A stretch of 28,635 bases of DNA, taken from a virus. Its lineage: Duplodnaviria > Caudoviricetes. This document shows, one piece after another, positions 10,128 to 28,606 of this stretch. Location: the IMG/VR virus record IMGVR_UViG_3300033067_000584, positions 1 to 28,635 of that record. The stretch is one strand, 5' to 3'. The stretch's first letter is position 1. Each line of letters begins with the position of its first letter. The notes beneath the pieces are model-generated. The model was not told the origin of the DNA and ran no database searches. It saw only the letters and a program-made list of their open reading frames with translations. The position numbers and the translations under genes were made by a program.

Positions 10128-12227
10128 TCAGGCGCCAGAAACGCCGAAGGCCCCTTCCGGGGCCTCCTTGTCGTCTTCGGCGAGGTCTTCGCTGACCGCC
10201 ATCGATAGGTCCGGCGGCGGTCGAATCTGCTTGGCAAGCAACTGCACCGCGCCTGCCAATTCGGCGATGTCGTGCTTGACGTCGTTGGTCGTGTCGGCGA
10301 TGTAGCGCTTCGTGTCTTCCTGCAGTTGCGCGATGCGTTCCCGACTGGTCGTCTCGACCTGCTTCAGCGCGATGCCGCTTTGCGCCTCTTGTAGTGCCTG
10401 CTGAAGCTGCTGGATCTCCTGCGCTGCCTGCTGCAGAACCTGCTGGACCTGCGGCGGGATCTGTTGCTGTTCCGGCGGGTTGTCCTGCAACTGAGGCGGA
10501 AGCGTCTTCGCAACCCGGTCGGCGATCTCGTCGGCATCCGGCCAGTCCATCGCGCGGATGATCTTGTCGCCCGCGATCTGCCAGATGTTGGGCCACGACT
10601 GCCCGACCTGCATCATTGCGTCCACAGCCTCTGCACGCTGCGTGGTGTAGCTCGGACCCACTCCGATGGTGACGTCGTACTTCCCAACCGTCAGATCGTG
10701 CAAGACCTGCTTGATGGCGCCGGCTTGGTTTGGCTTGCCCTCGAGGTTCGGCGTGTTGACGGGCACCGACTCCATCTTTTCGTCGGGGCCGAGGATCCGC
10801 AGCATCCGCGGCGTGTCGTACACCTTCGGCAGCATGTCCACGATGCACCGGCCGCACTGACGAATCGTCTTCGCCAGGTTGTCGGAGAAGTGGAAATTCG
10901 CCGTGTCGCCTTCCCGCTGCCGGGCGTTGATCGCGCGGCCAGAGGTTTCGTTGCCTTGAGCCCCGAGCGAGGCGTCGAAGATGCCGGTTGTCGCCTTGAT
11001 GTTGTCGCTGGCGTGCATCGCCATCGCAAGAACACCTGTCGGCACGTCGGCCATCGGCTGACGTTGAGGCGGGGGTGCCAGTTGCCCGTTGACGTCGATC
11101 GGGTCGTACTCGATGAACGAAAAACTGCGCGTGTTTGCTTGGTTCCACGCCTTCTTTGCCGTGTCGAACTGACCCACGGCACCGATGAACGGCGTCTTCG
11201 GACGCAGCGACACCTCTTCCGTCGCGCTGGTCATCCAGAAGTTGTACATGCGCTGCGGATCGCGCGCCCAGCGGACCATGCCATTCCTGCGGATGCGCCC
11301 ATCGACGATGCACTCGTCGCCGTAGACCGGAAAGACCGGAATCCACTTGCACGGAATCTCGGTGCGCTCCAGCACGTCGGCGCCCGTCACCTTGAACCAC
11401 TCCACCGTGCGGACATCGACCTTGCGGCGCTTCTCGATTGCCACGCCATCGGGCAGCGGCTTGGGCAGTTCGTCCTCGTAGCCCTCGTCCCCGGTGTTCA
11501 GCCGGCACAGCGTCCGCGGCGTCAGCTTGATGCGGTAGTACTCGGCCACGCGAACCGAGTCGTCCGACATCCAGATGACTGCGTTGTCACCCGCTCCAAC
11601 GGTCAACGACTCGGCATATCCGGCCTGTGCATCCGGGTACTGCAACTTGAACTCGTCTTTCGGCACCAGTTCCGTGACAAAGCAGTAGGCCATGTCCGAC
11701 CCGTCGGGCTCCTGGGCGAACGGGTCGGTGTAGACCGAAAACGGGTTCTGGATCCGACGGATGCGGATCTCTTGGTCGAACGAGTCGTCGGAGCAATACT
11801 CCGTGCCCAACCTGAAGTAACCGAACCCGCCGATCGTGGCGTGTTGGACCGCCGTGTCGTAGGCTGTGTCGGCGTTCGAGTTGTACTCGATGTACCGCAC
11901 CGCGCCCTGGATAACCTCTGCGGTCTCAGGATCCGCCACCGAATCGACGGGGTGGATCTTGATGCTCGGCCTGTTCTGCCTCTGCTCGTTGATCACCTGA
12001 TGCACAAACGCAGGCAACTTGTTGATCGTCAAACACGGCCGCTGCTCGACCTGACGCAGCCGGCGCATGTCGTCGGGCCACTGTTCCCCCGCCTCGAACC
12101 GGTGATCCTCCATCGCCTCGCGACGGTTCTCGGCGTCGTGCTTGATGCACAGCGCCAACCGGTCGCGCGCTTCCTTCAGGATCGCGTCGTCGTCGGAAGC
12201 TGCCGCGGGCTTCGCGTCGTCAGCCAT
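10128..12227 (-). CDS. portal protein, P22-like
   Basis: 699 aa; GEQWP, RPCLTINKLP, GGFGYFR, DPQRMYNFW, NETSGRAI.ARQ.EG, G.YDV....GPSY.TQR, Q-rich C-terminal barrel. Confidence 0.93.
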   Translation of the reverse strand: MADDAKPAAASDDDAILKEARDRLALCIKHDAENRREAMEDHRFEAGEQWPDDMRRLRQVEQRPCLTINKLPAFVHQVINEQRQNRPSIKIHPVDSVADPETAEVIQGAVRYIEYNSNADTAYDTAVQHATIGGFGYFRLGTEYCSDDSFDQEIRIRRIQNPFSVYTDPFAQEPDGSDMAYCFVTELVPKDEFKLQYPDAQAGYAESLTVGAGDNAVIWMSDDSVRVAEYYRIKLTPRTLCRLNTGDEGYEDELPKPLPDGVAIEKRRKVDVRTVEWFKVTGADVLERTEIPCKWIPVFPVYGDECIVDGRIRRNGMVRWARDPQRMYNFWMTSATEEVSLRPKTPFIGAVGQFDTAKKAWNQANTRSFSFIEYDPIDVNGQLAPPPQRQPMADVPTGVLAMAMHASDNIKATTGIFDASLGAQGNETSGRAINARQREGDTANFHFSDNLAKTIRQCGRCIVDMLPKVYDTPRMLRILGPDEKMESVPVNTPNLEGKPNQAGAIKQVLHDLTVGKYDVTIGVGPSYTTQRAEAVDAMMQVGQSWPNIWQIAGDKIIRAMDWPDADEIADRVAKTLPPQLQDNPPEQQQIPPQVQQVLQQAAQEIQQLQQALQEAQSGIALKQVETTSRERIAQLQEDTKRYIADTTNDVKHDIAELAGAVQLLAKQIRPPPDLSMAVSEDLAEDDKEAPEGAFGVSGA

Positions 12228-12543
12228 GCGGCATCCTCACCATCACGCAAGGCTCGGACTGGATCTCGACGAAGCCCATGCGCGAGTACCAACCCCTCAA
12301 GGCCACAGCATCGACCGGCGAGTCGTCGAACGGCTCGACGACCACCAGCAGCGCCAGATCTTCGGCGTCGGCCTCGCTCATGACGTCGCGCATCATCCGC
12401 GTGGCGTGGCCGTGACCACGCACCGCCTGATCCACCATCAACGAGGACACCTCGCGCACCTTGCCGCGCAAATGCGGCGGCACAGCCTGGCTGTACGTCA
12501 CGCGCAGCGATGCGCCTTCCGACTGCCGGTGTCCGTTGATCAT
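12220..12543 (-). CDS. GNAT-fold acetyltransferase-like protein
   Basis: Start reassigned to ATG 12543 (107 aa). VDQAVRGHGHATRMM matches the acetyl-CoA binding motif and WYSRMGF matches the GNAT C-terminal motif. Confidence 0.65.
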   Translation of the reverse strand: MINGHRQSEGASLRVTYSQAVPPHLRGKVREVSSLMVDQAVRGHGHATRMMRDVMSEADAEDLALLVVVEPFDDSPVDAVALRGWYSRMGFVEIQSEPCVMVRMPHG

Positions 12544-16274: not shown

Positions 16275-17822
16275 TCAGATTTGGCGGAAGATCTGCACGC
16301 GGCCGTTCACGACGCCCAGGACGCCGGACTTCTTGGCCCATTCGAACGCTCGCCTGTAGGCCTTTGACTTGCTGTCGCTGTTGCCCAAGTCGCAGGCCTC
16401 GTAGAACGCGGCGCGCAGTTCCTTCTCGGTCATGCCGTCCTTGGCGAGATCGACCAGCGTGGCGGCGTAGCCCTTGCGACCGCGGCTGATCTGCTCGGCC
16501 ACGATCTCGCGCATCTCCTCGGGGTCGCAGACGTGATGCGCCACCAACGACCCGACCGTGTCGCCGTCCTCGTCGGCGCCCAGTTCGACATGCAGAAGGT
16601 TGAAACTCAGGTCGGCGAAAGGCTCGCTGTCTTTCTGCTTCGCACAGGTCAGCGTCGCCAGCATCTCTGTCTCGTCGCGGAAGACGCCAAACATCCAGTC
16701 GAGGTTGGCGCGCATCGCGCTGCTGCCGCGGGGGCGCTCAGTGGCCAGGTGGCCGCTGTGGTGCAGCAGCATCACAGCGCACTGCCACAGGCTGCGGAAC
16801 CGGGCGCCCAGTTCGCGCAGATACGCTGCGACCTCGTTGGCGCTGTTCTCCTCGCCGGCATAGGTCTGCGACAGCGTATCGACGACGACCATCGCCGGTT
16901 GCACACCAAGGGCCTGGACGGCCTCTACGACGCGCCAGGCGTCGGCCTGCAGGTCCAGGGCCACCGGGACGACGTAGAACGGCGTGGAGCGCCAGTCCTT
17001 GATCCTGTGCTGCCGATGCCACGCCAGGATGCGCTTGTAGAGCCCGCTGCCGCCCTCGGCGGCGATGTAGACGACCGGACCCTGCCGCGTTTTCTTGCGC
17101 AGCCAGGGCATGCCGTGCGCGATGTGCAGGCCGGCGTCGAGGGCAATGAACGACTTGAATGTGCCGCTGCCGCCGAACAGCATGCCGATCGACTCGGCCG
17201 GCAGGATGCCCTTGACAAGCCATGACACGGCCGCCGCGGTCGAACGCAGGGCCTCGAGGTCCAGCAGCGGCACGCGGTTGGCGCCCGGCAGGCGGCGCGA
17301 TTCGATCTGCTTCAGTTCGAGCTTGGCCTGGTCGATCAGGTCGCCGGGCGACTCGTTGCCGAAGGCCCGCGTCGAGATCGACTCGCTGGCGGCGATCAGG
17401 CGGCGCAGCAATGCGCGTTCGCGCACGATCTCGGCGTAGCGCAGCACGCTCGCCGAAGAAGGCACGCACAGCGACAGACCGTTCAGGTACTTGATGCCGC
17501 CGCATTCGTCGGCCTGGTCCTGCGTGCGCAGGCGCTCGAAAACGGTGATGATGTCGGCGAGTTCGCCGGCCTGCACCAGGTCGCAGATCGCGGCGAAGAT
17601 CAGCCGGTGGTCGTGCGAGTAGAAGTCGGCGACTTCCAGGTGCTCGCGGGCCTGCGCCACCGCGGCGTTGTCCAGCAGGAGCGCTCCCAGCACCGATTGC
17701 TCGGCCTCGAGCGAGTGCGGCGGCTTGCGCAGCGTCTCGCGGTATTCCGGCGGCATTGCGCCATCCGAGTCGGTCACCGGATCGTGTCCTTTGCTGCGGC
17801 GTTGGAAGGCCAGAAGCGCCAT
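16275..17822 (-). CDS. replicative helicase: DnaB N-terminal domain fused to a RepA/AAA_25-type SF4 ATPase
   Basis: PPHSLEAEQSVLGALLLDN...DFY...HRLIF (DnaB-N); WLVKGILP, G.SGTFKSF, YIAAEG, VVDTL, ENSA, HHSG, RGSSA (RepA-type). Confidence 0.85.
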   Translation of the reverse strand: MALLAFQRRSKGHDPVTDSDGAMPPEYRETLRKPPHSLEAEQSVLGALLLDNAAVAQAREHLEVADFYSHDHRLIFAAICDLVQAGELADIITVFERLRTQDQADECGGIKYLNGLSLCVPSSASVLRYAEIVRERALLRRLIAASESISTRAFGNESPGDLIDQAKLELKQIESRRLPGANRVPLLDLEALRSTAAAVSWLVKGILPAESIGMLFGGSGTFKSFIALDAGLHIAHGMPWLRKKTRQGPVVYIAAEGGSGLYKRILAWHRQHRIKDWRSTPFYVVPVALDLQADAWRVVEAVQALGVQPAMVVVDTLSQTYAGEENSANEVAAYLRELGARFRSLWQCAVMLLHHSGHLATERPRGSSAMRANLDWMFGVFRDETEMLATLTCAKQKDSEPFADLSFNLLHVELGADEDGDTVGSLVAHHVCDPEEMREIVAEQISRGRKGYAATLVDLAKDGMTEKELRAAFYEACDLGNSDSKSKAYRRAFEWAKKSGVLGVVNGRVQIFRQI

Positions 17823-19310: not shown

Positions 19311-19520
19311 TCAGGCTGCGGCTTGCTGAGGCAGCGGAAACCGGAACTGGTCGCAGTCCGGTTCAGCGCGGAGTTCCCCGGCCGTCAGCGCTTCGATCTG
19401 CAACTGCCTCAAAGGAGGCGGATGCCGATCCCAGTTCGCCACCGACGGCTGCGTGATTCCTAGAGCCTCCGCGACCTTCTGCTGAGACCCAAAGTGCTTG
19501 AGCACATCGTCCTTGGTCAT
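19311..19520 (-). CDS. cro: Cro-like repressor
   Basis: MTKDDVLKHFGSQQKVAEALGITQPSVANW...PP.RQLQIE.LT.G.L; divergent from the CI-like gene. Confidence 0.88.
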   Translation of the reverse strand: MTKDDVLKHFGSQQKVAEALGITQPSVANWDRHPPPLRQLQIEALTAGELRAEPDCDQFRFPLPQQAAA

Positions 19521-19527
19521 GCCCGAC

Positions 19528-19555
19528 ATCATAGCGGGGCCTATGCGTTTGTCAA
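19528..19555 (-). promoter_or_regulatory. pR-like promoter
   Basis: TTGACA (19555-19550), 16-nt spacer, TATGAT (19533-19528), 7 nt before the cro ATG. Confidence 0.8.
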
Positions 19556-19568
19556 TAGCGCCCGATAT
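19531..19568. promoter_or_regulatory. OR-like operator pair
   Basis: ATAGCGGGGCCTAT (19531-19544) and ATAGCGCCCGATAT (19555-19568); ATAG-N6-CTAT dyad. Confidence 0.8.
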
Positions 19569-19592
19569 GGCTTTTGAAGGCAGCATGTATAC

Positions 19593-19991
19593 ATGACCTC
19601 AATGGGCGCTCGTATTAAGGCTCTTCGGGAGGCCCAAGGGCTTTCGATCACTGAAGCCGCTAGGCGGATCGGGATCAAGCAGCCGTCGATGTCTAACATC
19701 GAGTCTGGGAAGACGGTCAAGCTGCGCGGTGACACACTCTCGGCAATCTGTCGAGTGTTCGGGGCCTCCCCGGATTTCATCCTTCGGGGCTACGCCAACT
19801 CCACCGAGGCAACGCTGATGGAAAGCGAGCTAGTCCGGTTGTGGCGGGCCATGCCCGAAGACCAGCGACCGCATGTGCTGGCCGTGATCAGGGCGATGGC
19901 AAAAGAACCGCCGCGCCCTCACTCGGCACCCGACCAGGCCGCGGAAGCCGCGGCAAGCGGTAGGTCTACATCGCTGTTACAACCTCGCTGA
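19593..19991 (+). CDS. CI-like XRE-family repressor without a peptidase S24 domain
   Basis: MGARIKALREAQGLSITEAARRIGIKQPSMSNIESGK HTH; only 132 aa; flanked by operators. Confidence 0.85.
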   Translation: MTSMGARIKALREAQGLSITEAARRIGIKQPSMSNIESGKTVKLRGDTLSAICRVFGASPDFILRGYANSTEATLMESELVRLWRAMPEDQRPHVLAVIRAMAKEPPRPHSAPDQAAEAAASGRSTSLLQPR

Positions 19992-20008
19992 CTTTTTTTC
20001 GCAAAAGC

Positions 20009-20047
20009 ATAGCGGGGCCTATTGACAGGTCCGATAGCGCGGCCTAT
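20009..20047. promoter_or_regulatory. OL-like operator pair
   Basis: ATAGCGGGGCCTAT (20009-20022, identical to 19531-19544) and ATAGCGCGGCCTAT (20034-20047). Confidence 0.82.
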
Positions 20048-20050
20048 AGT
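20022..20050 (+). promoter_or_regulatory. pL-like promoter
   Basis: TTGACA (20022-20027), 17-nt spacer, TATAGT (20045-20050), overlapped by both operators. Confidence 0.85.
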
Positions 20051-20284: not shown

Positions 20285-20342
20285 CCCCACCCGCTGCCCC
20301 TCTGAGGAGGGGATGCGAGTGTGGTCAACCACTGGAGCCGAT

Positions 20343-20630
20343 ATGAATGCAGACCAAGTCCGAGCCCTCGTCGCAGCCAAATTCCCCGGCGTGCTCGATT
20401 TACCGCTGGCGCAAGCCATGCTCGGCGCGTCGTCGATGGCATTGCTGGAGTCGAGCGACGCCGACCGAGTGATCCTGCTGGCAGACGCTCGCGCCCATGC
20501 GGATGCTTGTCTCGCCGCGTGCGACGGTTGGACCGTCGAAACGCTGGGCCACAACATCGAGTCCGCTTTCAGCGGCGAATTGGACTGCGACGAGTGCGAC
20601 GAGATTGCCCGCAAGGCGCTGGGCCTGTGA
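20343..20630 (+). CDS. hypothetical protein (95 aa)
   Basis: ATG 20343 with a GGAG RBS inside the repeat. Confidence 0.6.
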   Translation: MNADQVRALVAAKFPGVLDLPLAQAMLGASSMALLESSDADRVILLADARAHADACLAACDGWTVETLGHNIESAFSGELDCDECDEIARKALGL

Positions 20631-20670
20631 TCGTCGCCAACAAATAGCGGTCAACCACTGTGGTGAAAAC

Positions 20671-20877: not shown

Positions 20878-20928
20878 ACGCAGCCGCATCTTTTCTGGGA
20901 TGCGGCGTGGTCAACCACTGGAGCCGAC

Positions 20929-21270
20929 ATGGACACCCTGGACGAGATCCGCAGCGCCGAGTACATCGAGCGCAACCCCGAGTCGAACGCCGCGCAGGCC
21001 GTCCGCGAAGCGGCGCACGCCTACAGCTTCGGCGTGTTCTTGAGCGAGTTCGAGCGCGGCAATGACAAGATCGTCGAGACCCCGCAGTACAGCCGCGAGC
21101 GCTCCACGATTCAAGAAGTCGCCGAGTGCGACATGGACATCGGCCCGGTGCTGGACCTGATCCGCGCCGCGTCGAAGTGCAACCACGCCACACTCAGGCT
21201 GCAGGCTCAGGCCATTGTCGCCACGCTGGCCCGGCAGTACGCCGACGACGTGCAGGACGCGACGCAATGA
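20929..21270 (+). CDS. hypothetical protein (113 aa)
   Basis: GGAG RBS in the repeat; ATGA overlap with the next gene. Confidence 0.6.
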   Translation: MDTLDEIRSAEYIERNPESNAAQAVREAAHAYSFGVFLSEFERGNDKIVETPQYSRERSTIQEVAECDMDIGPVLDLIRAASKCNHATLRLQAQAIVATLARQYADDVQDATQ

Positions 21271-21836
21271 AAGCGTGGCACTTTGTGGGTGACACCCTGC
21301 GCGACGGCCGCCCTGTTCCGAAGGACGGTGAGCTGTTGCGCTTCGACGGCAAGCCTATCTTGTGCGAGCAAGGTCTGCATGCTTCTCTGGAGCCGTGGGG
21401 GGCGCTCCAGTACGCCCCGGGAGAAACACTGTGCTTGGTGGAGTGCGGCGGTCAGATCGTCCACGGACTTGACAAGTTCGTCTGTACCGAGCGGACGATC
21501 ATCGTTCGCATGGATGCGGGCCCGCTGTTGCGGCACTTTGCGCGGCAGCAGGCGTTGTCGGTGGTCCATTTGTGGGAGCCGCCGCAGGTCGTTCTTGATT
21601 TCATCATGGGTGACGATGCCGCGAGGGCTGCCGCGTGGGCTGCCGCGAGCAATGCCGCGTGGGTTGCCGCGAGGGCTGCCGCGAGCAATGCCGCGTGGGC
21701 TGCCGCGAGCAATGCCGCGTGGGCTGCCGCGAGGGCTGCCGCGAGCAATGCCGCGAGCAATGCCGCGTGGGCTGCCGCGAGGCAAGACTTCAATGCTCTC
21801 GTCCTCGACTCTTTCGCCGACTGGTTGGAGGATTGA
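21267..21836 (+). CDS. phage protein with LC..GLHAS motif and Ala/Trp tetrapeptide repeat
   Basis: ATG 21267 (189 aa); MKAWHF...LCEQGLHAS...ALQYAPG; AARA/AAWA/AASN repeats. Confidence 0.7.
   Translation: MKAWHFVGDTLRDGRPVPKDGELLRFDGKPILCEQGLHASLEPWGALQYAPGETLCLVECGGQIVHGLDKFVCTERTIIVRMDAGPLLRHFARQQALSVVHLWEPPQVVLDFIMGDDAARAAAWAAASNAAWVAARAAASNAAWAAASNAAWAAARAAASNAASNAAWAAARQDFNALVLDSFADWLED
21618..21785 (+). repeat. 14 x 12-bp coding tandem repeat GCCGCG-N6
   Basis: Units GCCGCGAGGGCT, GCCGCGTGGGCT and GCCGCGAGCAAT in mixed order, plus two variants. Confidence 0.9.
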
Positions 21837-22503: not shown

Positions 22504-23079
22504 ATGGACACCAAGCAAGTATCTGCCGCTTTCGTCAAGGCACAAAAGGCATTCGGACCTGCGCTGAAGAGTGCGACCAATCCGCACTTCCGCTCAAAGT
22601 ACGCGGACCTATCGGCTTGTGTCGAAGCGGTCATCGATGCCCTGAACAACAACGGCATCGCACTGATGCAGCGGAACATCGCCTGCGATACGGGTGTCTG
22701 CGTCGAGACCGTGCTGATCCACGAATCAGGCGAGATGCTGTCCAGTGGACCGCTTCACGTCCCAGCTCAGAAGATCGACGCGCAGGGCTACGGCAGCGCT
22801 TTAACGTATGCCCGCAGGTACAGCTTGATGGCTGCGTGTGGCATCGCTCCCGAGGATGACGACGGCAATGCGGCCATGAAGCGCAATAAGGTCCGCGACG
22901 AATGGCTGGCCGGCCGTAAGACCGCAATCATGTCTGCGTCGAATGTAGGAGAACTGAAGAAGATCGTCTCCGACGCCATCGAGTCGGCAACGAACGAAGA
23001 CGACGGCCGCGCCGTCGATCAGATCAACGCATGGGCCGAGGAAAAGAAGTCCTCTGCCAAGACCAAGGAGCACGCATGA
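22504..23079 (+). CDS. erf: Erf-family ssDNA annealing recombinase
   Basis: ATG 22504; NPHFRSKYADL, T.LIHESGE, QGYGSALTYARRYSL, EDDDGN. Confidence 0.9.
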   Translation: MDTKQVSAAFVKAQKAFGPALKSATNPHFRSKYADLSACVEAVIDALNNNGIALMQRNIACDTGVCVETVLIHESGEMLSSGPLHVPAQKIDAQGYGSALTYARRYSLMAACGIAPEDDDGNAAMKRNKVRDEWLAGRKTAIMSASNVGELKKIVSDAIESATNEDDGRAVDQINAWAEEKKSSAKTKEHA

Positions 23080-23570
23080 CAGCCCTCTATGTTCTTGTGA
23101 ACGAGTACCGCGCCGCAGCGGAACAACTCGCAAATATCGAACTGGACGAACAGACGGTCGCAGATACGCTCGAAGGACTGTCCGGTGAACTTGAAGTCAA
23201 GGCGCAGCAGGTTGCCTTCATGGTTAGGAACATGGAAGTGACCGCTGACGCAATCGCGCAGTTCATCAAGGATCAGTCGGCCAGGGCCAAGGCTATCCAG
23301 CACCGGGCAGATGGTCTCCGCTCGTACCTGCACAGGTGCATGGAAGAAGCGGGGATCGAGAAGATCGAAGGCCCGGGAATCTCGTTGAGTTTCCGCAAGT
23401 CCAGTGCTGTCGCCATCGATGAACCCGGGCTGATCCCTGTGCAGTTCATGCGGACCCCTGAACCGCCGCCGCCAGCACCGGACAAGAAGGCGATTGCAGA
23501 TGCCATCAAGGCCGGGGTCGAAGTTCCGGGCGCCCACATCGAGCATCGTCGCTCGTTGCAGATCAAGTGA
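23076..23570 (+). CDS. siphovirus Gp157-family protein
   Basis: ATG 23076; LY...DTLE.L...K, coiled coil, PDKKAI..AIK.G.EVPGA. Confidence 0.85.
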   Translation: MTALYVLVNEYRAAAEQLANIELDEQTVADTLEGLSGELEVKAQQVAFMVRNMEVTADAIAQFIKDQSARAKAIQHRADGLRSYLHRCMEEAGIEKIEGPGISLSFRKSSAVAIDEPGLIPVQFMRTPEPPPPAPDKKAIADAIKAGVEVPGAHIEHRRSLQIK

Positions 23571-23890
23571 AGTTCCCGAAGTCGCCTCCTGTTCGCAGCG
23601 AGTCCTATCGCCGATGGGTGGCGACGCTTCCCTGCGCGTGCTGCGGCATCGTCGGATTCAGCCAGGCGGCGCATCCGAATAGCGGCAAGGGCGTGGCGAT
23701 GAAGACAAGCGACCTTCTGTGCTTCCCTCTGTGCTCCATGCGCCCGGGGCATCAGGGTTGCCACGCGATGCATGACCTCTGCGTGGACATGACGCGAGAC
23801 GGCCGGCGACTCGCTGAACAGAGGTACATCGCTCAGACGCAGGACGCTGCGGTCAAGGCTGGGCGCAAGGAGATCGTGTGCACCAACTGA
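23567..23890 (+). CDS. DUF968/Ref-like Zn-binding HNH-type protein
   Basis: RSESYRRWVATLPCACCG...AAH...K.SD...PLC...CH..HD. Confidence 0.7.
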   Translation: MKFPKSPPVRSESYRRWVATLPCACCGIVGFSQAAHPNSGKGVAMKTSDLLCFPLCSMRPGHQGCHAMHDLCVDMTRDGRRLAEQRYIAQTQDAAVKAGRKEIVCTN

Positions 23891-24264
23891 CCCTCTGGAA
23901 CGCGCAGCAAGGGCACAGCACGCTGCTGCAACTGTGGCAGTGGATCAAGCCGCATCTGATCGCAGGACGTCGCATCCAGATCGTGGCGCGAGAAGCGACG
24001 AGGTCATCGGAGCAAAACGCCAAGCTGCACGCGATGATCTCGGACATCGCACGCACCCGCGAGTGGGCCGGCAAGCGGCGCGACATCGAAACGTGGAAGC
24101 GCCTGCTGACAGCGGCGTGGCTCAGGGCGCGTGGCGAGTCCGTGGAACTGCTTCCGGCGCTGGACGGTCACGGGATCGATGTGGTGTTCAGGCCGACGTC
24201 CTCGCTGACTGTCGCGGAATGCTCGGAACTGATCGACTTCATCGAAGCATGGGAGGCATCGTGA
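23878..24264 (+). CDS. ninB: NinB (Orf) recombination protein
   Basis: RSSEQNAKLHAMISDIAR..W.G...WKRL, TS.LTV.ECSELIDFIEAW. Confidence 0.88.
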   Translation: MHQLTLWNAQQGHSTLLQLWQWIKPHLIAGRRIQIVAREATRSSEQNAKLHAMISDIARTREWAGKRRDIETWKRLLTAAWLRARGESVELLPALDGHGIDVVFRPTSSLTVAECSELIDFIEAWEAS

Positions 24265-24701
24265 GTGATCTTCTCAAGGCCGCGCTGGCGGCGCTGGAGG
24301 CGATGGAGCACAGCGTGCCGACCGGCACCATCTCGCTGGACGATTGGTACGGGACGCAGCACCGGCTCCGCGCCGCGCTGGCGCAGCCCGAGCCCACGGA
24401 AGACTGCTGGCTCAATGGAGGTAAGTGCATCGATGGCTGCAAGGGTCGTCCGCACTGTGCCAATAACGACACCACCGCAGCAGGTCAACCCACGGCAGAC
24501 GGCCCGACGCTTCCGAAGCCCCGCGTATTGGATCACCTCGGGTTTAGTGCAGGCACGTACACCGCCAACCAGATGCTCGCCTTCCGAGACGCTGCCGTGG
24601 CGCAGGAGCGGGAGAGGTGCGCGAAGGTGTGCGAGAGCGTGAACAACCACGACAACCCGATGACGGCACAGGACTGCGCCGCGGCAATCCGCAAGGGGTG
24701 A
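24261..24701 (+). CDS. hypothetical mosaic early protein (146 aa)
   Basis: GTG 24261 after GGAGG; LRAALAQP, YTA.QM.A and ERERCAKVCE...CAAAIR motifs. Confidence 0.65.
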   Translation: MSDLLKAALAALEAMEHSVPTGTISLDDWYGTQHRLRAALAQPEPTEDCWLNGGKCIDGCKGRPHCANNDTTAAGQPTADGPTLPKPRVLDHLGFSAGTYTANQMLAFRDAAVAQERERCAKVCESVNNHDNPMTAQDCAAAIRKG

Positions 24702-24704
24702 GAG

Positions 24705-25025
24705 ATGGACCTGATCGAGAGACTGCGCGAGAGGCGCATAACGCGCTGGGTGCACAGCACTGGTATGCCTCCGAAGTCTGACGGATTCACCCGGGATGCT
24801 CTCTGCATTGAAGCCGCCGACGAGATCGAGCGGCTGACCAACAACACCGACAACCTGCGGCAACAGGTTGAGGATCTGACCAAGGAGCGCGATGCGCTGC
24901 GCCTGGATGCGGCACGGTATCGGTGGCTGCGCGCAAATCACCTACAGGTAGGCCCCGATGCCTGGATCATAACGGGCGATGACCTAGACGAAGCCATCGA
25001 CGCGGCGATGAAGGAGCGGAGATGA
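24705..25025 (+). CDS. Ead/Ea22-like early protein
   Basis: DLIERLR, EAADEIERL, DAARYRWLR, LDEAIDAAM motifs. Confidence 0.65.
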   Translation: MDLIERLRERRITRWVHSTGMPPKSDGFTRDALCIEAADEIERLTNNTDNLRQQVEDLTKERDALRLDAARYRWLRANHLQVGPDAWIITGDDLDEAIDAAMKERR

Positions 25026-25270
25026 CAACCTGCCACCGCTGCGGACTGCCGCAATTCGACGGCCCAGCCGGCTACGCTGGGCCGCAGTGCCGGTGTTGGT
25101 TGATTGACCAGCACCGACCTTCTGCCTACAAGCCCATGCCGCCAGTCGGTGGCTGCCAGCCCGCGCAACCACTCACAGAGTCCGACATCCGTCGGATCAT
25201 CCGCGAGGAAGTATCCGCGTGGCGCGAGGAGTTCAAGAAGTGGCAGGAAGTGCTGGAGAAGAAGCCATGA
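25022..25270 (+). CDS. hypothetical protein (82 aa)
   Basis: AAGGAG RBS; ATGA overlaps at both ends. Confidence 0.6.
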   Translation: MTTCHRCGLPQFDGPAGYAGPQCRCWLIDQHRPSAYKPMPPVGGCQPAQPLTESDIRRIIREEVSAWREEFKKWQEVLEKKP

Positions 25271-25377
25271 CTGACGCCGGTTTAATGCTCGCGCTCAGTA
25301 TCTATCTGTACTCAACCGGACACTGGATCGGCGGCACGGTTGCACTCTACCTGTATAGACGCCGTATCAAGGAGTAA
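25267..25377 (+). CDS. small hydrophobic peptide (36 aa)
   Basis: MTDAGLMLALSIYLYSTGHWIGGTVALYLYRRRIKE; exactly fills the gap and carries the next gene's RBS. Confidence 0.5.
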   Translation: MTDAGLMLALSIYLYSTGHWIGGTVALYLYRRRIKE

Positions 25378-25380
25378 ACA

Positions 25381-25728
25381 ATGACCTCTGACCGCGAACT
25401 ACTGGAACTCGCCGCGAAGGCGGCGGGGATCACTTTCATTAAGTGGGTTGAAGATGTGCGGGCGTGGCTCTGCGAAACAAACGATGGCACGCCGCGCTAT
25501 TTCTGGAACCCGTTGGACTACGACGGCGACGCGCTGCGGCTGGCGGTGGCGCTGAACATCGACCTGATGCACGACACCGGCGTTGGCGGCCCGGGTCAAA
25601 GCGTGACGTTCCCGCTCGAAGGCGACTACGAAGCGTTGACTGAGCACCATGCGGAAGGCGACAAGCAGTCCGCCACCCGCCGCGCCATCGTCCGCGCAGC
25701 CGCTGAGATCGGGCGGGCGACGGCATGA
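25381..25728 (+). CDS. conserved phage protein (115 aa)
   Basis: DRELLELAAKAAG, WNPL..DGDALRLAV.L and ATRRAIVRAAAEIG motifs; AAGGAG RBS. Confidence 0.75.
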   Translation: MTSDRELLELAAKAAGITFIKWVEDVRAWLCETNDGTPRYFWNPLDYDGDALRLAVALNIDLMHDTGVGGPGQSVTFPLEGDYEALTEHHAEGDKQSATRRAIVRAAAEIGRATA

Positions 25729-25734
25729 GCGAGT

Positions 25735-25794
25735 GGAGAACGCTGCCGGTAACCGGCCGCCGTCAGGCGGTCCCGGTTGACCGGCTTGTTAGGC
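25735..25794 (-). repeat. attC site 1 (60 bp)
   Basis: Minus strand: GCCTAAC AAGCC GGTCAACC GGGACCGCC TGAC GGCGGCC GGTTACC GGCAGC GTTCTCC. Confidence 0.85.
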
Positions 25795-25819
25795 GCGTTT
25801 CGGTGTTACACAAAAGCGC

Positions 25820-25848
25820 TTGCATGATTGCCATTGCGGTATTACATT
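25820..25848 (+). promoter_or_regulatory. cassette-internal promoter
   Basis: TTGCAT, 17-nt spacer, TACATT in an AT-rich patch; GT(G/A)TTACA repeats at 25803 and 25839. Confidence 0.6.
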
Positions 25849-25892
25849 AACACCACTGCAACACAACGCGCAGCAATCAACCGGAGAAAACC

Positions 25893-26198
25893 ATGACCGC
25901 CAATACTGTCACCACCCTGCTGACTGCCAAGGGCTTCGGCCCCCGGCTTACGTTCGGCGGCTTCGCCGCCGCCGTCTGGCTGGCCGAGGCGGTCACCCAG
26001 ACCGTCAGCTCGCCGATCCGGCGGGCACAATTTGTCGCCGCCGCCGCAGAAGACCTCGCACGCCTTGACTACCAGCCTTTCGAGTGGCTGGAAGACGAGG
26101 CCAAGGGCCTCGCTGAGGTGGCCGAGGCCCAGAGGCCGACGCCGTGCGGTAGCACGGAGCTTTGGGGCAGCTTGCTCCAAAGGATGGGGCCGGCGTAA
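25893..26198 (+). CDS. cassette A gene 1, hypothetical (101 aa)
   Basis: GGAG RBS; TAATG coupling to the next gene. Confidence 0.65.
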   Translation: MTANTVTTLLTAKGFGPRLTFGGFAAAVWLAEAVTQTVSSPIRRAQFVAAAAEDLARLDYQPFEWLEDEAKGLAEVAEAQRPTPCGSTELWGSLLQRMGPA

Positions 26199-26359
26199 TG
26201 CCGGCCGGCAAGAGGCTTGGCCGCCCGGCCCTGCCGCCCGGCGAGAAGCTAGTGGTGGTGCCGGTGCGGCTAACCAAGGAGCAAAAAGCCAAGTTGCAGC
26301 GCATCGGCGTGCAGCGGCTGCGCGAGTGGCTTGACCGTGTGCGCGAGCCAAGCGCCTAA
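26198..26359 (+). CDS. cassette A gene 2, RHH/BrnA-like DNA-binding protein (53 aa)
   Basis: GRPALPPGEKLVVVPVRLTKEQKAKLQRIG...LREWLD; stop is the TAA of GCCTAAC. Confidence 0.65.
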   Translation: MPAGKRLGRPALPPGEKLVVVPVRLTKEQKAKLQRIGVQRLREWLDRVREPSA

Positions 26360-26421
26360 CGCTTGAGCTAAGGCGCAGGCCCGGTACTCCGGGACTGTCG
26401 CCCTTGAGCGAAGTGTTAGGC
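26354..26421 (-). repeat. attC site 2 (68 bp)
   Basis: Minus strand: GCCTAAC ACTTC GCTCAAGG GCGACAGTCCCGG AGTA CCGGGCCTGCG CCTTAGC TCAAGC GTTAGGC. Confidence 0.92.
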
Positions 26422-26448
26422 ATCAGTGGCGAACGAAGGGAAAGAAGC

Positions 26449-26859
26449 ATGCGAACAGCGATGAGGCCGCGCTACTACTGCGACCACTGCAACAAGGGTA
26501 ACGGATCGCCCAGCGCCATGCGCCGCCATGAGCGCGGCTGCACGCTGAACCCGCAGCGCGTGTGCGGCATGTGCAAGATGCTGGCCGACGAAGGCGGGCC
26601 AGAGCCGGCGCCGCCGCGCGATGAGTTGGTGCGGATCATGGACGCCGAAGGCTTCGCGGCCATGTGCAAGGCGGCCGAACACTGCCCGGCCTGCATCCTG
26701 GCCGCGCTGCGAACCAAGAACTTCAAGGGCGACGCGGAGAGCCCGCCCGGTGTGCTTGGCCCGGAGGATGGGCGTGAGTCGTGGAGTTACAAGCAAGCAA
26801 AGCAGGCATGGTGGGACGCCTGGAATAGCAGCGCGTATGAGCGCGAGCGGCCTTACTGA
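26449..26859 (+). CDS. cassette B gene, Cys/His-rich Zn-finger protein (136 aa)
   Basis: ATG 26449; YYCDHC...RHE..C..NP.R.C.MC...CPACILAALR. Confidence 0.7.
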   Translation: MRTAMRPRYYCDHCNKGNGSPSAMRRHERGCTLNPQRVCGMCKMLADEGGPEPAPPRDELVRIMDAEGFAAMCKAAEHCPACILAALRTKNFKGDAESPPGVLGPEDGRESWSYKQAKQAWWDAWNSSAYERERPY

Positions 26860-26860
26860 T

Positions 26861-26926
26861 GCCTAACGCTGCCGGTAAGGCGCCGGCCGCGCCAGCGGAC
26901 GGTCGCCCTTGACCGGCTTGTTAGGC
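26861..26926 (-). repeat. attC site 3 (66 bp)
   Basis: Minus strand: GCCTAAC AAGCC GGTCAAGG GCGACCGTCCGC TGGC GCGGCCGGCG CCTTACC GGCAGC GTTAGGC. Confidence 0.92.
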
Positions 26927-26972
26927 CCTGGCCCCGAAGCGAGATAGTGCAACCGTACTAGGACTAAACAAC

Positions 26973-27368
26973 GTGGATAAGCAAACCGACCTGATTTCGA
27001 GGCTGCAAGACGAGGCCGACTTGTGCCGCAACGACGGCGCAAGCGACATCGCGGCGCTGCTGGACGAGGCGGTGGCAGCACTTCAAGCCCCACGGCCGGA
27101 AGTGGCCGGCGATGGCTCCGAGGCCATGCAACTGTCGTGGGTGCCGCTGAACCGGCGCAACCTTGACTGGCACGCCCACGCCACCGTGCAACTGCGCGCG
27201 ATGCACGTTGCCCTGAGCGCAGCACAGAAGACGCCCCGCGACCCGCTGGAGATTGAAGAACTGTGGGACGAGGCGCACGAACTGCTGGAACAAGGCGGAC
27301 AGCACGACCCCGAAGTGCACGAGTTGTTCGCGCGCCTGATTGAGCGCGCGCATGGGATTGGAGTCTGA
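26973..27368 (+). CDS. cassette C gene 1, phage-type hypothetical protein (131 aa)
   Basis: AGGA RBS with GTG start; LLDEAVAAL and FARLIERAHGIG phage motifs. Confidence 0.65.
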   Translation: MDKQTDLISRLQDEADLCRNDGASDIAALLDEAVAALQAPRPEVAGDGSEAMQLSWVPLNRRNLDWHAHATVQLRAMHVALSAAQKTPRDPLEIEELWDEAHELLEQGGQHDPEVHELFARLIERAHGIGV

Positions 27369-27370
27369 CG

Positions 27371-27694
27371 ATGGCTGACGGAAACATCACGGTCGAGGTG
27401 AGCACCCAGGCAGCGCAGGCCGAGCTGGAGCGGCTGCGCGCCGAGAACTCGGCCCTGAAGCGCGACCTGCAGTACGCCCGGGACGGGCTGACGAATGGGC
27501 GCACCAGGATGCGCGAAGACAACGAGCGGTTGCGGGCGGCGCTGCAGTGGATTGATGGAGCTACTGCCGCGACTCCTGGGCTGACAGACGCAGAGCTTGG
27601 ACGCGCTATGGCTGCGATTGGCAAGAAGGCCCGCGATGCTCTTGGGCCTAACGTTCGAGCTGAACCGGACCCAACAGCGCGAGGAAATACATGA
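27371..27694 (+). CDS. cassette C gene 2, coiled-coil protein (107 aa)
   Basis: GGAG RBS; ELERLRAEN, NERLRAAL; reads on into attC4. Confidence 0.65.
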   Translation: MADGNITVEVSTQAAQAELERLRAENSALKRDLQYARDGLTNGRTRMREDNERLRAALQWIDGATAATPGLTDAELGRAMAAIGKKARDALGPNVRAEPDPTARGNT

Positions 27695-27765
27695 GCACCA
27701 CCGAAGCAAACGAAAACCACGAACGCGGCCCGCTGTTGGGGCTCGGTTCGAGCGAGGGGTTGGGC
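27646..27765 (-). repeat. attC site 4 (120 bp, long loop containing an RBS and ATG)
   Basis: Minus strand: GCCCAAC CCCTC GCTCGAAC CGAGCCCCAACAGCG...CGCTGTTGGGTCCG GTTCAGC TCGAAC GTTAGGC. Confidence 0.9.
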
Positions 27766-28170
27766 GCTGGCGCCGAAGCGCGCTACTGCTACAGCACCGA
27801 TGAGGAAGAGTTCTACGGCGACTTCGACACCCGCGAGGACGCGCTGGCCGAGGCGACGGCAGAACTTGAAGGCCGCGATGAACCGGGAGAGACGCGAAAG
27901 GTCTGGACCGGCGTGCAGAAGCCTGCGATGTACTTCCTGCGCAAGAGCACCGAACACCTGGGCCGCGACTTCGCCGAGCGCATTGACGAATGGCTGGCCG
28001 ACAACATCGCGGCCGAAGAAGAGATTGTTGAAGTCAAGGACCACGCGGCGTTAGGCGCTGCGCTGCTGGACGCGCTGGAGCGGCACGCGACGTTCAACCG
28101 CTGGGCGGTGCACCAGGTGCAGGAACATGAAGCCATCGTGCCCGGCGAACCTGAAGCGCCCAACGCTTAG
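27691..28170 (+). CDS. cassette D gene, acidic phage-type protein (159 aa)
   Basis: GAGG RBS and ATG lie inside attC4; YCYSTDEEEFYGDFDTREDALAEA motif. Confidence 0.7.
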   Translation: MSTTEANENHERGPLLGLGSSEGLGAGAEARYCYSTDEEEFYGDFDTREDALAEATAELEGRDEPGETRKVWTGVQKPAMYFLRKSTEHLGRDFAERIDEWLADNIAAEEEIVEVKDHAALGAALLDALERHATFNRWAVHQVQEHEAIVPGEPEAPNA

Positions 28171-28224
28171 GTGTGGGGCCTGCGCGGCTTTTCGCGCAGG
28201 TCCCACACGACCGACGTGTTCTGC
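28158..28224 (-). repeat. attC site 5 (67 bp)
   Basis: Minus strand: GCAGAAC ACGTC GGTCGTGTGGGA CCTGCGCG AAAAGC CGCGCAGG CCCCACACC TAAGC GTTGGGC. Confidence 0.82.
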
Positions 28225-28241
28225 CTTTTTCGGAGAGAGAT

Positions 28242-28580
28242 ATGGAATGGATTGATGTGGCAACGCTGACGGTGCGGCGCGAGTTCCGGCCTGGCACACG
28301 CAAGAAGTTTGACGGCGAAATTGAGCCGTGTTTCAACCTGCTGCGGGACTGCGGTATCGGATGTACCTGCGAGGCATCGACTTGGTTCCGCGATGGCGTG
28401 CCGACCATCGACGCGGCAGAGAGTAAATGCCTCTGCTTCAACGACCGCAAGAAACAAGGTATCTCCGAAATTAAGGGGACGGGCCGCGCCATCAAGGAAG
28501 GCCCTGACGAATGGATCTACGAGGTTCAGGCGAAGCTCGTGGAAGTAAGGCAGAACGTTGCAATTGAGCCGCGCCGGTAG
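28242..28580 (+). CDS. cassette E gene, Cys-containing hypothetical protein (112 aa)
   Basis: GGAG RBS with ATG 28242; ends inside attC6. Confidence 0.65.
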   Translation: MEWIDVATLTVRREFRPGTRKKFDGEIEPCFNLLRDCGIGCTCEASTWFRDGVPTIDAAESKCLCFNDRKKQGISEIKGTGRAIKEGPDEWIYEVQAKLVEVRQNVAIEPRR

Positions 28581-28606
28581 GCGTCGGCTCGAATTGCGTG
28601 TTGGGC
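28550..28606 (-). repeat. attC site 6 (57 bp)
   Basis: Minus strand: GCCCAAC ACGCA ATTCGAGC CGACGCC TACC GGCGCG GCTCAAT TGCAAC GTTCTGC. Confidence 0.9.

What the first reader, a model, noticed from the sequence alone, without database searches (positions are those of the whole stretch)
25735..28606. Integron attC cassette array inside a temperate phage early operon
Seen: six 57-120 bp sites at 25735, 26354, 26861, 27646, 28158 and 28550, each reading on the minus strand as AAC-ending R'', 5-nt spacer, L'' with an extra C, stem-loop, L', 5-6 nt spacer, GTT-starting R'. They separate five cassettes of about 390-790 bp, and an RBS at the window edge suggests more follow. Established: this is the attC architecture recombined by IntI, and integrons are normally described on chromosomes, plasmids and transposons rather than in phages. 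The cargo carries phage early-gene motifs (FARLIERAHGIG, NERLRAAL, DTREDALAEA), not typical bacterial cassette genes. Inference: a phage gene-shuffling system driven by an IntI outside the window or by the host integrase in trans. I cannot confirm novelty without a literature search.
Basis: partly seen in the sequence, partly recalled or inferred. Interest (0 to 1): 0.95.

Follow-up and report, generated by a model that had tools for sequence, protein, structure and literature searches.

The report
Flipped integron cassettes shuffle phage genes
This bacterial virus keeps five small blocks of genes between six integron-type recombination sites; two of the blocks recur letter for letter beside different neighbours in other samples, and all the genes face the opposite way to normal bacterial cassettes, so they would be read from the phage's own early promoter and are likely shuffled by an integron integrase from the host or from related phages.

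Summary
Observation confirmed. All six sites are real attC sites: a model built only from bacterial attC ranks them as the top six hits, on the minus strand. Each site's R'' pairs with the next site's crossover (5 of 5), as circular-cassette insertion predicts. Cassettes 4 and 5 recur with zero differences and other neighbours at AA|C in other studies.

attC arrays in phages are already published (Qi et al. 2023). This holds for 77 of 77 cassette genes in related phage arrays. In 23 of 25 viral loci with an IntI relative, an attC array lies upstream of intI, and 81 of 88 array genes are inverted; 20 of 22 viral IntIs form one clade.

No IntI lies in this 75%-complete contig, so the enzyme source is unresolved. 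I found no paper on inverted phage cassettes. This scan noted the pattern before in at least 19 other genomes. Verdict: new variant of a known kind.

The parts
19311..20050 (.). Cro-like (19311-19532, minus) and cI-like (19593-19991, plus) genes with divergent sigma-70-like promoters; the plus-strand one at 20022-20050 likely drives the early operon that runs into the array
   Evidence: P22_Cro, HTH; 11 of 12 consensus matches; 2 found vs 1.5 expected, so a weak call on its own
22504..25728 (+). Early operon upstream of the array: ERF, Gp157/Gam-like, DUF968, NinB, small genes, last gene phrog_5086 (25381-25728)
25725..25740 (+). Left junction: an ATG overlapping the stop of gene 25381-25728 gives a five-codon stub that runs into the first crossover; its hexamer matches no R'' of the array, likely the remnant of the original target site
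   Evidence: interpretation inferred
25735..25794 (-). attC site 1 (top strand minus); crossover after 25740
   Evidence: 29.9 bits
25741..26359 (+). Cassette 1 (619 bp): AT-rich leader, ORF 25893-26198, small basic ORF 26198-26359 whose TAA is the junction hexamer; a similar module lies outside any attC in L322
26354..26421 (-). attC site 2; crossover after 26359
   Evidence: 57.3 bits
26360..26866 (+). Cassette 2 (507 bp): Cys/His-rich ORF 26449-26859; homologues in phages PhiPLPE and Tabio have no attC
26861..26926 (-). attC site 3; crossover after 26866
   Evidence: 50.1 bits
26867..27651 (+). Cassette 3 (785 bp): ORFs 26973-27368 and 27371-27694; the second reads through the crossover and stops inside site 4; related cassettes in L082, L085, L090 (IntI phage), L092, L093
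27646..27765 (-). attC site 4 (120 nt); its loop holds the ribosome-binding site and ATG (27691) of the cassette-4 gene, overlapping the upstream stop
   Evidence: (18.5 bits)
27652..28163 (+). Cassette 4 (512 bp): ORF 27691-28170; found with zero differences and other neighbours in runs X4 and X5
28158..28224 (-). attC site 5; 98.6-100% identical to a site in IntI-encoding phages L317-L319
   Evidence: (16.6 bits)
28164..28555 (+). Cassette 5 (392 bp): ORF 28242-28580, no family match; body found with 0-2 differences in runs X2, X3, X4, X6, X7, each ending at 28557
28550..28606 (-). attC site 6; crossover after 28555
   Evidence: 39.2 bits
28556..28635 (+). Start of a sixth cassette (site 6 plus ribosome-binding site), cut by the contig end; a near-identical head begins a cassette in L181 and related heads in L182-L184

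Best explanation
Six integron attC sites divide the far end of the phage's early operon into five complete cassettes whose genes all lie on the attC bottom strand, the reverse of normal cassettes; the cassettes move between genomes as exact units cut at AA|C, likely through an integron integrase (IntI), and the reversed genes would be expressed from the phage early promoter. Shown: the sites, the inversion, exact-unit mobility, and related phages with the same layout, some with intI placed after the array and before xis/int, others without it. Inferred: IntI excises cassettes as circles from folded bottom strands and inserts them at an attI-like site at the operon's far end, beyond this contig. 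For this phage the enzyme most likely comes in trans, from a chromosomal integron or an IntI-carrying phage or prophage (about 0.7), or is encoded in the missing quarter of the genome (about 0.25). Also inferred: inversion makes these cassettes silent under a host Pc promoter and host cassettes silent in the phage operon.
For: Independent attC model. Relay signature, R'' complementary to the next crossover: 5 of 5 in the window vs 2 of 5 to its own; 33 vs 18 of 42 pairs in the first set of arrays, window included; 36 vs 7 of 47 pairs in IntI-phage loci. In cassette 4 both ends change together between the window and L095/L096. Cassette 4 occurs with 0 differences and other letters on both sides in X4, continuing into different attC-like arms in X4 and X13. 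A 1,256-bp cassette is present in L184 and absent in L180/L183 exactly at AA|C. Near-identical phages L317 and L318 differ in cassette content with breakpoints at the sites. Orientation: SD-led longest ORF on the bottom strand in 49 of 56 phage cassettes (top 1) vs 6 of 50 bacterial ones (top 23); 77 of 77 codon-model ORFs. Phage IntIs pass the TIGR02249 cut-off, 7 of 7 tested. 113 of 151 genomes of the genus of G011 have IntI, and G011 holds both a chromosomal IntI and a phage contig with an inverted array and no adjacent intI.
Against: No IntI or attI in the window, and no recombination or expression was measured. No listed joint skips or circularises a cassette at AA|C in 8 of 21 runs laid; contigs drop rare forms and the joint table was cut. 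No listed contig bridges sites 2-6, so the order here is not independently confirmed. Only 4 of 10 array ends score as host-like attI. Five inverted ORFs in host integrons had no convincing PHROG match and no homologue in my phage loci, so phage-to-host transfer rests on orientation alone. None of the five cassette bodies was found in 401 genomes of G011's family, a search that scored two candidates per genome. The host genus is inferred from binned or related phages only. Exceptions: L080 and L326 are viral records with ordinary-looking cassettes, and 7 of 88 ORFs in IntI-phage arrays are on the top strand.
Confidence: 0.82

Rival explanations
1. The phage carries its own complete integron: attI and intI lie just past the contig end, before xis/int, as in L090, L290 and L317. 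This differs from the best explanation only in the source of the enzyme.
For: The record is 75% complete and breaks inside the array. Site 5 is 98.6-100% identical to sites of IntI phages. The cassette-3 family occurs in IntI phage L090. Prophage L290 has intI and shares the helicase at 53.5%.
Against: Only 1 of 12 viral records with such arrays had IntI over the cut-off, and 1 of 3 that are at least 90% complete. In the closest relative by portal and terminase (L100) and in L095 and L096, which end with the cassette-4 homologue, no intI follows the array.
Confidence: 0.25
2. A piece of a host chromosomal integron was captured once by the prophage and is now a passive relic.
For: Qi et al. 2023 describe such capture in Vibrio anguillarum phages. 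L080 and L326 look like this.
Against: Genes are inverted and cargo GC matches the phage, 0.63 vs 0.51 for bacterial cassettes. Homologues are viral. Cassettes are unchanged in other contexts. None was found in 401 bacterial genomes searched.
Confidence: 0.04
3. The sites are now used mainly as short homology linkers for ERF/Red-type recombination between phages, or as mRNA hairpins, and IntI plays little current role.
For: An ERF annealing protein lies in the same operon. Sites 1-3 share stretches of about 30 nt. Genes start inside 13 of 29 long sites.
Against: Breakpoints fall at AA|C with a different attC arm following, which homology exchange would not give. The relay signature requires circular intermediates. 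The site-4 RNA fold is no more stable than shuffles, z 0.02.
Confidence: 0.08
4. The array is an assembly chimera, joined through similar attC sequences from several phages.
For: The contig ends in a shared cassette head, depth rises at the sites, and no listed contig bridges sites 2-6.
Against: An X1 contig spans site 1 from the phage side, 25702-26248 with 0 differences (X1 may be the source sample). L096 has the same cassette 3 to 4 order. Each cassette is internally coherent. A chimera could alter the order but not the existence of inverted arrays, seen in dozens of other records.
Confidence: 0.06

Closest known systems
Phage-borne CALINs and integrons (Qi et al. 2023, PMC9892861)
   Same: Several attC sites in a phage genome, no integrase in view, small unknown genes; DNA methyltransferases among the cargo of related arrays.
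   Different: The paper's text does not mention genes antisense to attC, and I could not see its figures. Its tested TJE1 array has genes on the top strand. It found 21 cases in 10,705 genomes. Here the genes are inverted, sit in the early operon, and belong to a pool shared with IntI-encoding phages.
Sedentary chromosomal integrons of the genus of G011 (record title Rubrivivax sp.)
   Same: Same attC type; the intI-attI-attC geometry of the related phage integrons is canonical; some phage array ends resemble the host attI.
   Different: Host cassettes are mostly top-strand and AT-richer. Phage arrays would be read from the far end towards attI and on into intI; phage IntIs group apart.
SALIN/attG insertions (bioRxiv 10.1101/2022.09.11.507474)
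   Same: IntI can place cassettes at non-att genomic sites, which could explain the degenerate left junction.
   Different: Those are single cassettes in bacterial genomes; attG use was not tested here.
Inverted integron-integrase group (Cury et al. 2016, PMC4889954)
   Same: intI ends up co-directional with the cassette genes.
   Different: There intI is flipped relative to attC; here intI and attC keep the usual relation and the cassette genes are flipped.

Membership tests
attC site | R'' (RYYYAAC) and R' (GTTRRRY) boxes with conserved AAC/GTT | tested here: met
   6 of 6 have AAC/GTT; flanking bases deviate in R' of sites 1 and 6 and R'' of site 5
attC site | L''/L' pairing with an extrahelical base and 5/5-6-nt unpaired spacers | tested here: met
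   7/7 in five sites, 6/7 in site 5, extra C on the minus strand
attC site | Match to a covariance model of known attC | tested here: met
   Own model from 18 bacterial sites; top six hits, two of them below 20 bits. IntegronFinder's model was not available.
attC site | Recombination of the folded bottom strand by IntI | not testable with these tools
   Indirect only: relay signature and breakpoints at AA|C
Gene cassette | Moves as an exact unit between crossover points | tested here: met
   Cassettes 4 and 5; relatives
Canonical gene cassette | ORF on the attC top strand, expressed from Pc | tested here: not met
   All 7 ORFs are on the bottom strand
CALIN | Cluster of attC sites | tested here: met
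   Six sites, 392-785 bp apart
CALIN | No integron integrase nearby | tested here: inconclusive
   None in the contig, which ends 29 nt after site 6
Complete integron | intI gene | tested here: inconclusive
   Not in the window; present in relatives
Complete integron | attI site at the array head | tested here: inconclusive
   No window position reaches the 99.9% background score of a phage-attI matrix; the expected position is off the contig
Complete integron | Pc promoter reading into the array from the attI side | not tested
   That side is missing; gene orientation implies the opposite direction
Temperate lambdoid phage | Divergent cI/Cro switch and recombination genes | tested here: met
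Temperate lambdoid phage | Phage integrase or other lysogeny system | tested here: inconclusive
   No PF00589 match in a 75%-complete record

The most novel reading that the evidence does not exclude
Temperate phages run their own integron system: a phage IntI lineage with its own attI, placed in the early operon, and a pool of inverted cassettes made from ordinary phage early genes, including counter-defence genes. The pool is shared with IntI-less phages like this one and kept apart from the host's anti-phage cassettes by orientation alone. It would be a place to watch new gene cassettes being made.
Probability: 0.5. Interest if true: 0.9.

Novelty: new variant of a known kind. Interest (0 to 1): 0.76.

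Why it matters
It offers a site-specific mechanism for part of the gene mosaicism of phage early regions, usually put down to homologous or illegitimate recombination (own knowledge). Bacterial integrons stockpile anti-phage genes (abstract of 10.1101/2024.07.02.601719, search listing of 10.1101/2024.07.02.601686), while related inverted arrays carry methyltransferase, Lar-like, Mom-like and queuine-transglycosylase-like genes, so both sides may use the same recombination chemistry. The same gene family occurs inside and outside cassettes (phrog_5086; the cassette-2 protein; the cassette-1 module), which makes the open question of how cassettes arise testable by comparing gene ends.

Tried and rejected
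Rfam: one chance match, nothing at the sites. Site 2 against plasmids: only chance matches. Array DNA against INPHARED: 22 matches, all to upstream genes; cassette 4 and 5 proteins no match. The flanking gene phrog_5086 does not mark arrays: no clustered sites on one strand in 79 loci. Among 80 NinB loci, 4 had two or more model hits. Pfam and NCBIfam gave no hit over cut-off for the seven cassette proteins; I assign them no function. Terminator-like sites were at chance level. Phage H101: only the first 50 of 132 kb were fetched and the published sites were not found there, so their orientation was not checked. L183 and L184 could not be searched for IntI. The metagenome scan did not recover this phage's right-hand flank. 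A replication argument (bottom strand on the lagging template with co-directional transcription) fits the geometry, but no origin was located, so it is not used as evidence. No structure prediction was run.
Full report
Context. The window is the whole record, a linear virus contig of 28,635 nt estimated 75% complete. The left two thirds hold minus-strand head, terminase and helicase genes of P22-like type; a Cro/cI pair at 19311-19991 is followed by a plus-strand early operon with ERF, Gp157, DUF968 and NinB. The finding lies at the far end of this operon, and the contig stops 29 nt after the last site. No tyrosine recombinase is encoded.

The sites. My rule-based scan found exactly these six, with 1 hit in 200 shuffles of the region, but it was adjusted on them. 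I therefore built a covariance model from 18 attC sites of bacterial loci, chosen as those of 80 nt or less in 17 loci, none from the window. It ranks the six sites first to sixth on the minus strand, 57.3 to 16.6 bits, with the next hit at 12.5. So the top strand is minus and the recombining bottom strand is plus.

Orientation. All seven ORFs between the sites are on the plus strand by a codon model trained on window genes; the best minus-strand ORF scores 2.5 against 10.6-46.5. In normal cassettes bottom-strand recognition serves to put the gene in line with Pc (passage in 10.1101/2022.09.11.507474), so these genes are inverted. One gene uses the TAA of the crossover hexamer as its stop; another starts in the loop of the 120-nt site, overlapping the upstream stop. 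In related arrays genes start inside 13 of 29 long sites but 1 of 55 short ones, and 36 of 84 junctions supply the stop. A test without the codon model gave an SD-led longest ORF on the bottom strand in 49 of 56 phage cassettes (top 1) and in 6 of 50 bacterial cassettes (top 23); by ORF length alone the split was 40 to 15 and 13 to 37. I assigned the groups by flanking genes and put L080, a provirus record with AT-richer, ordinary-looking cassettes, among the bacterial ones.

Mobility. If cassettes enter as circles, the R'' of each site should pair with the crossover of the next site, not its own. This holds in 5 of 5 cases in the window (own site 2 of 5); across the first set of arrays it is 33 against 18 of 42 pairs, and 19 against 3 where the two differ. 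Pairs over 1,300 nt apart were skipped. In cassette 4 both ends differ together between the window and L095/L096. I laid 8 of 21 listed runs. Cassette 4 occurs with no difference in X4 and X5, with other letters before it, and runs into other attC-like arms in X4 and X13; the body of cassette 5 occurs with 0-2 differences in X2, X3, X4, X6 and X7, ending at 28557. X2 and X5 have no depth on the backbone at 23500-24015. X1 may be the source and is not counted. In relatives a 1,256-bp cassette is present or absent exactly at AA|C, and two phages with flanks 98.5-99.8% identical differ in cassettes with breakpoints at the sites. Against this: no circle or skip joint was listed, and no listed contig bridges sites 2-6.

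The enzyme. Of 12 viral records with such arrays, 1 has an IntI over the TIGR02249 cut-off (L090), and 1 of 3 near-complete ones. In L090 the order is early genes, cassettes, attI-like end, intI, a small xis-like gene and a phage integrase, all on one strand. Using that IntI as query gave 35 viral loci. I examined the 25 with enough upstream DNA, leaving out five weak partial matches, four with under 300 nt upstream and one interrupted match. Of these, 23 have attC sites upstream in the usual relation to intI, with 81 ORFs on the bottom strand and 7 on the top, and the relay signature in 36 against 7 of 47 pairs. Many share an attI-like motif. In a FastTree of 70 IntIs, 20 of 22 viral rows plus prophage L290 form one clade (support 0.973) apart from 47 host rows; L326 and L328 fall among the hosts. 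Near-duplicates, partial rows and one row with a stop were left out. The viral set was found with one member as query and the hosts are nearly all from one genus, so the clade is suggestive only. A smaller IQ-TREE run joined the two phage IntIs then known at 100/96, on long branches.

Host side. A phage contig with an inverted array and no adjacent intI lies in MAG G011, titled Rubrivivax sp., which has a chromosomal IntI on another contig; 113 of 151 genomes of that genus have IntI. A matrix from 23 hand-picked host attI candidates places 4 of 10 phage array ends in the top 0.4% of background, three of them in records without IntI; six are not significant. Among about 19 host loci with attC detected beside intI, three carry inverted ORFs in the attI-proximal cassettes (L224 two, L273, L291), possibly a fourth. 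One starts inside its attC like the phage genes, but none matched a phage family or my phage loci. The host of the window's phage is not established.

Cargo. The seven proteins have no family above cut-off. The nearest Atlas clusters for two of them are mostly viral, though the third hit for cassette 4 is 57% bacterial. Of 77 cassette proteins in related arrays, 21 match a PHROG at 1e-4, among them 2 methyltransferases, 4 Lar-like, 1 Mom-like, 1 queuine-transglycosylase-like and 2 PAPS-reductase-like. The family flanking site 1 here lies inside a cassette in L183, cassette-2 homologues in two isolated phages have no attC, and a cassette-1-like module is attC-free in L322.

Mechanism. Shown: sites, inversion, exact-unit movement, and phage integrons of the same layout. 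From established integron biology: IntI cuts folded bottom strands at AA|C. Inferred: expression from the early promoter near 20022, insertion at an attI-like site beyond the contig, supply of IntI in trans or from the missing part, and mutual silence of phage and host cassettes. That IntI induction and prophage induction share the SOS trigger is recalled, and mentioned as a possibility in Qi et al..

Literature. Qi et al. 2023, PMC9892861: main text read (parts 1-4 of 7, the rest references) and supplement part 1 of 2; figures and the Dryad annotations not seen, so inverted arrays could be drawn there. Its TJE1 array has top-strand genes. Passages only: 10.1101/2022.09.11.507474, 10.1101/2024.07.02.601719, PMC13323075, PMC11551772, PMC13492144, PMC11389934, PMC4889954. 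Nine searches returned nothing on inverted phage cassettes or a phage IntI lineage; the library lacks most subscription papers. I had noted the inversion and found the Qi paper before consulting this scan's notes, which report the pattern in at least 19 other genomes and suggested looking for attI and phage IntI.

Verdict. Real, and more than the published phage CALIN: an inverted-cassette array from a pool shared with phage-encoded integrons. New variant of a known kind, interest 0.76.

Noticed in passing
window 21617-21782: Thirteen or so 12-bp tandem units giving an Ala-Ala-Trp-Ala-type repeat tail on the DUF7666 protein 21267-21836.
   Followed up: no
window 20321-20345 and 20907-20931: A 25-nt direct repeat (96%) just upstream of two early genes, with a third partial copy near 20640; possibly a regulatory leader or modular insertion scar.
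   Followed up: no
window 16275-17777: DnaB N-terminal domain fused to an AAA_25 domain; 53.5% identical to the gene of IntI prophage L290.
   Followed up: partly
window 25795-26359; L322 3630-4172; similar pairs in L091 and L183: A recurring module of AT-rich leader, variable ORF and small basic protein; the leader and second ORF are conserved while the first ORF differs. It occurs inside and outside cassettes.
   Followed up: partly
window 25725-25740; first junctions of L083, L084, L093, L094, L098: An ATG lies a few bases before the first crossover in several arrays, suggesting a leader stub that couples translation into the array.
   Followed up: no
L224 (G011:C260) 829-1658: A chromosomal integron beside housekeeping genes whose two newest cassettes are inverted and whose third is normal.
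   Followed up: partly
L183 and L184: Arrays of up to 13 detected sites in metagenome phage contigs; the two ends of one contig (L180, L184) hold two versions of the array.
   Followed up: yes
L259 (G432:C2:183000-196200): Two intI genes facing outwards about 11 kb apart in one genome.
   Followed up: no
window 12220-12543: GNAT-like gene between terminase and portal, also in L100.
   Followed up: no
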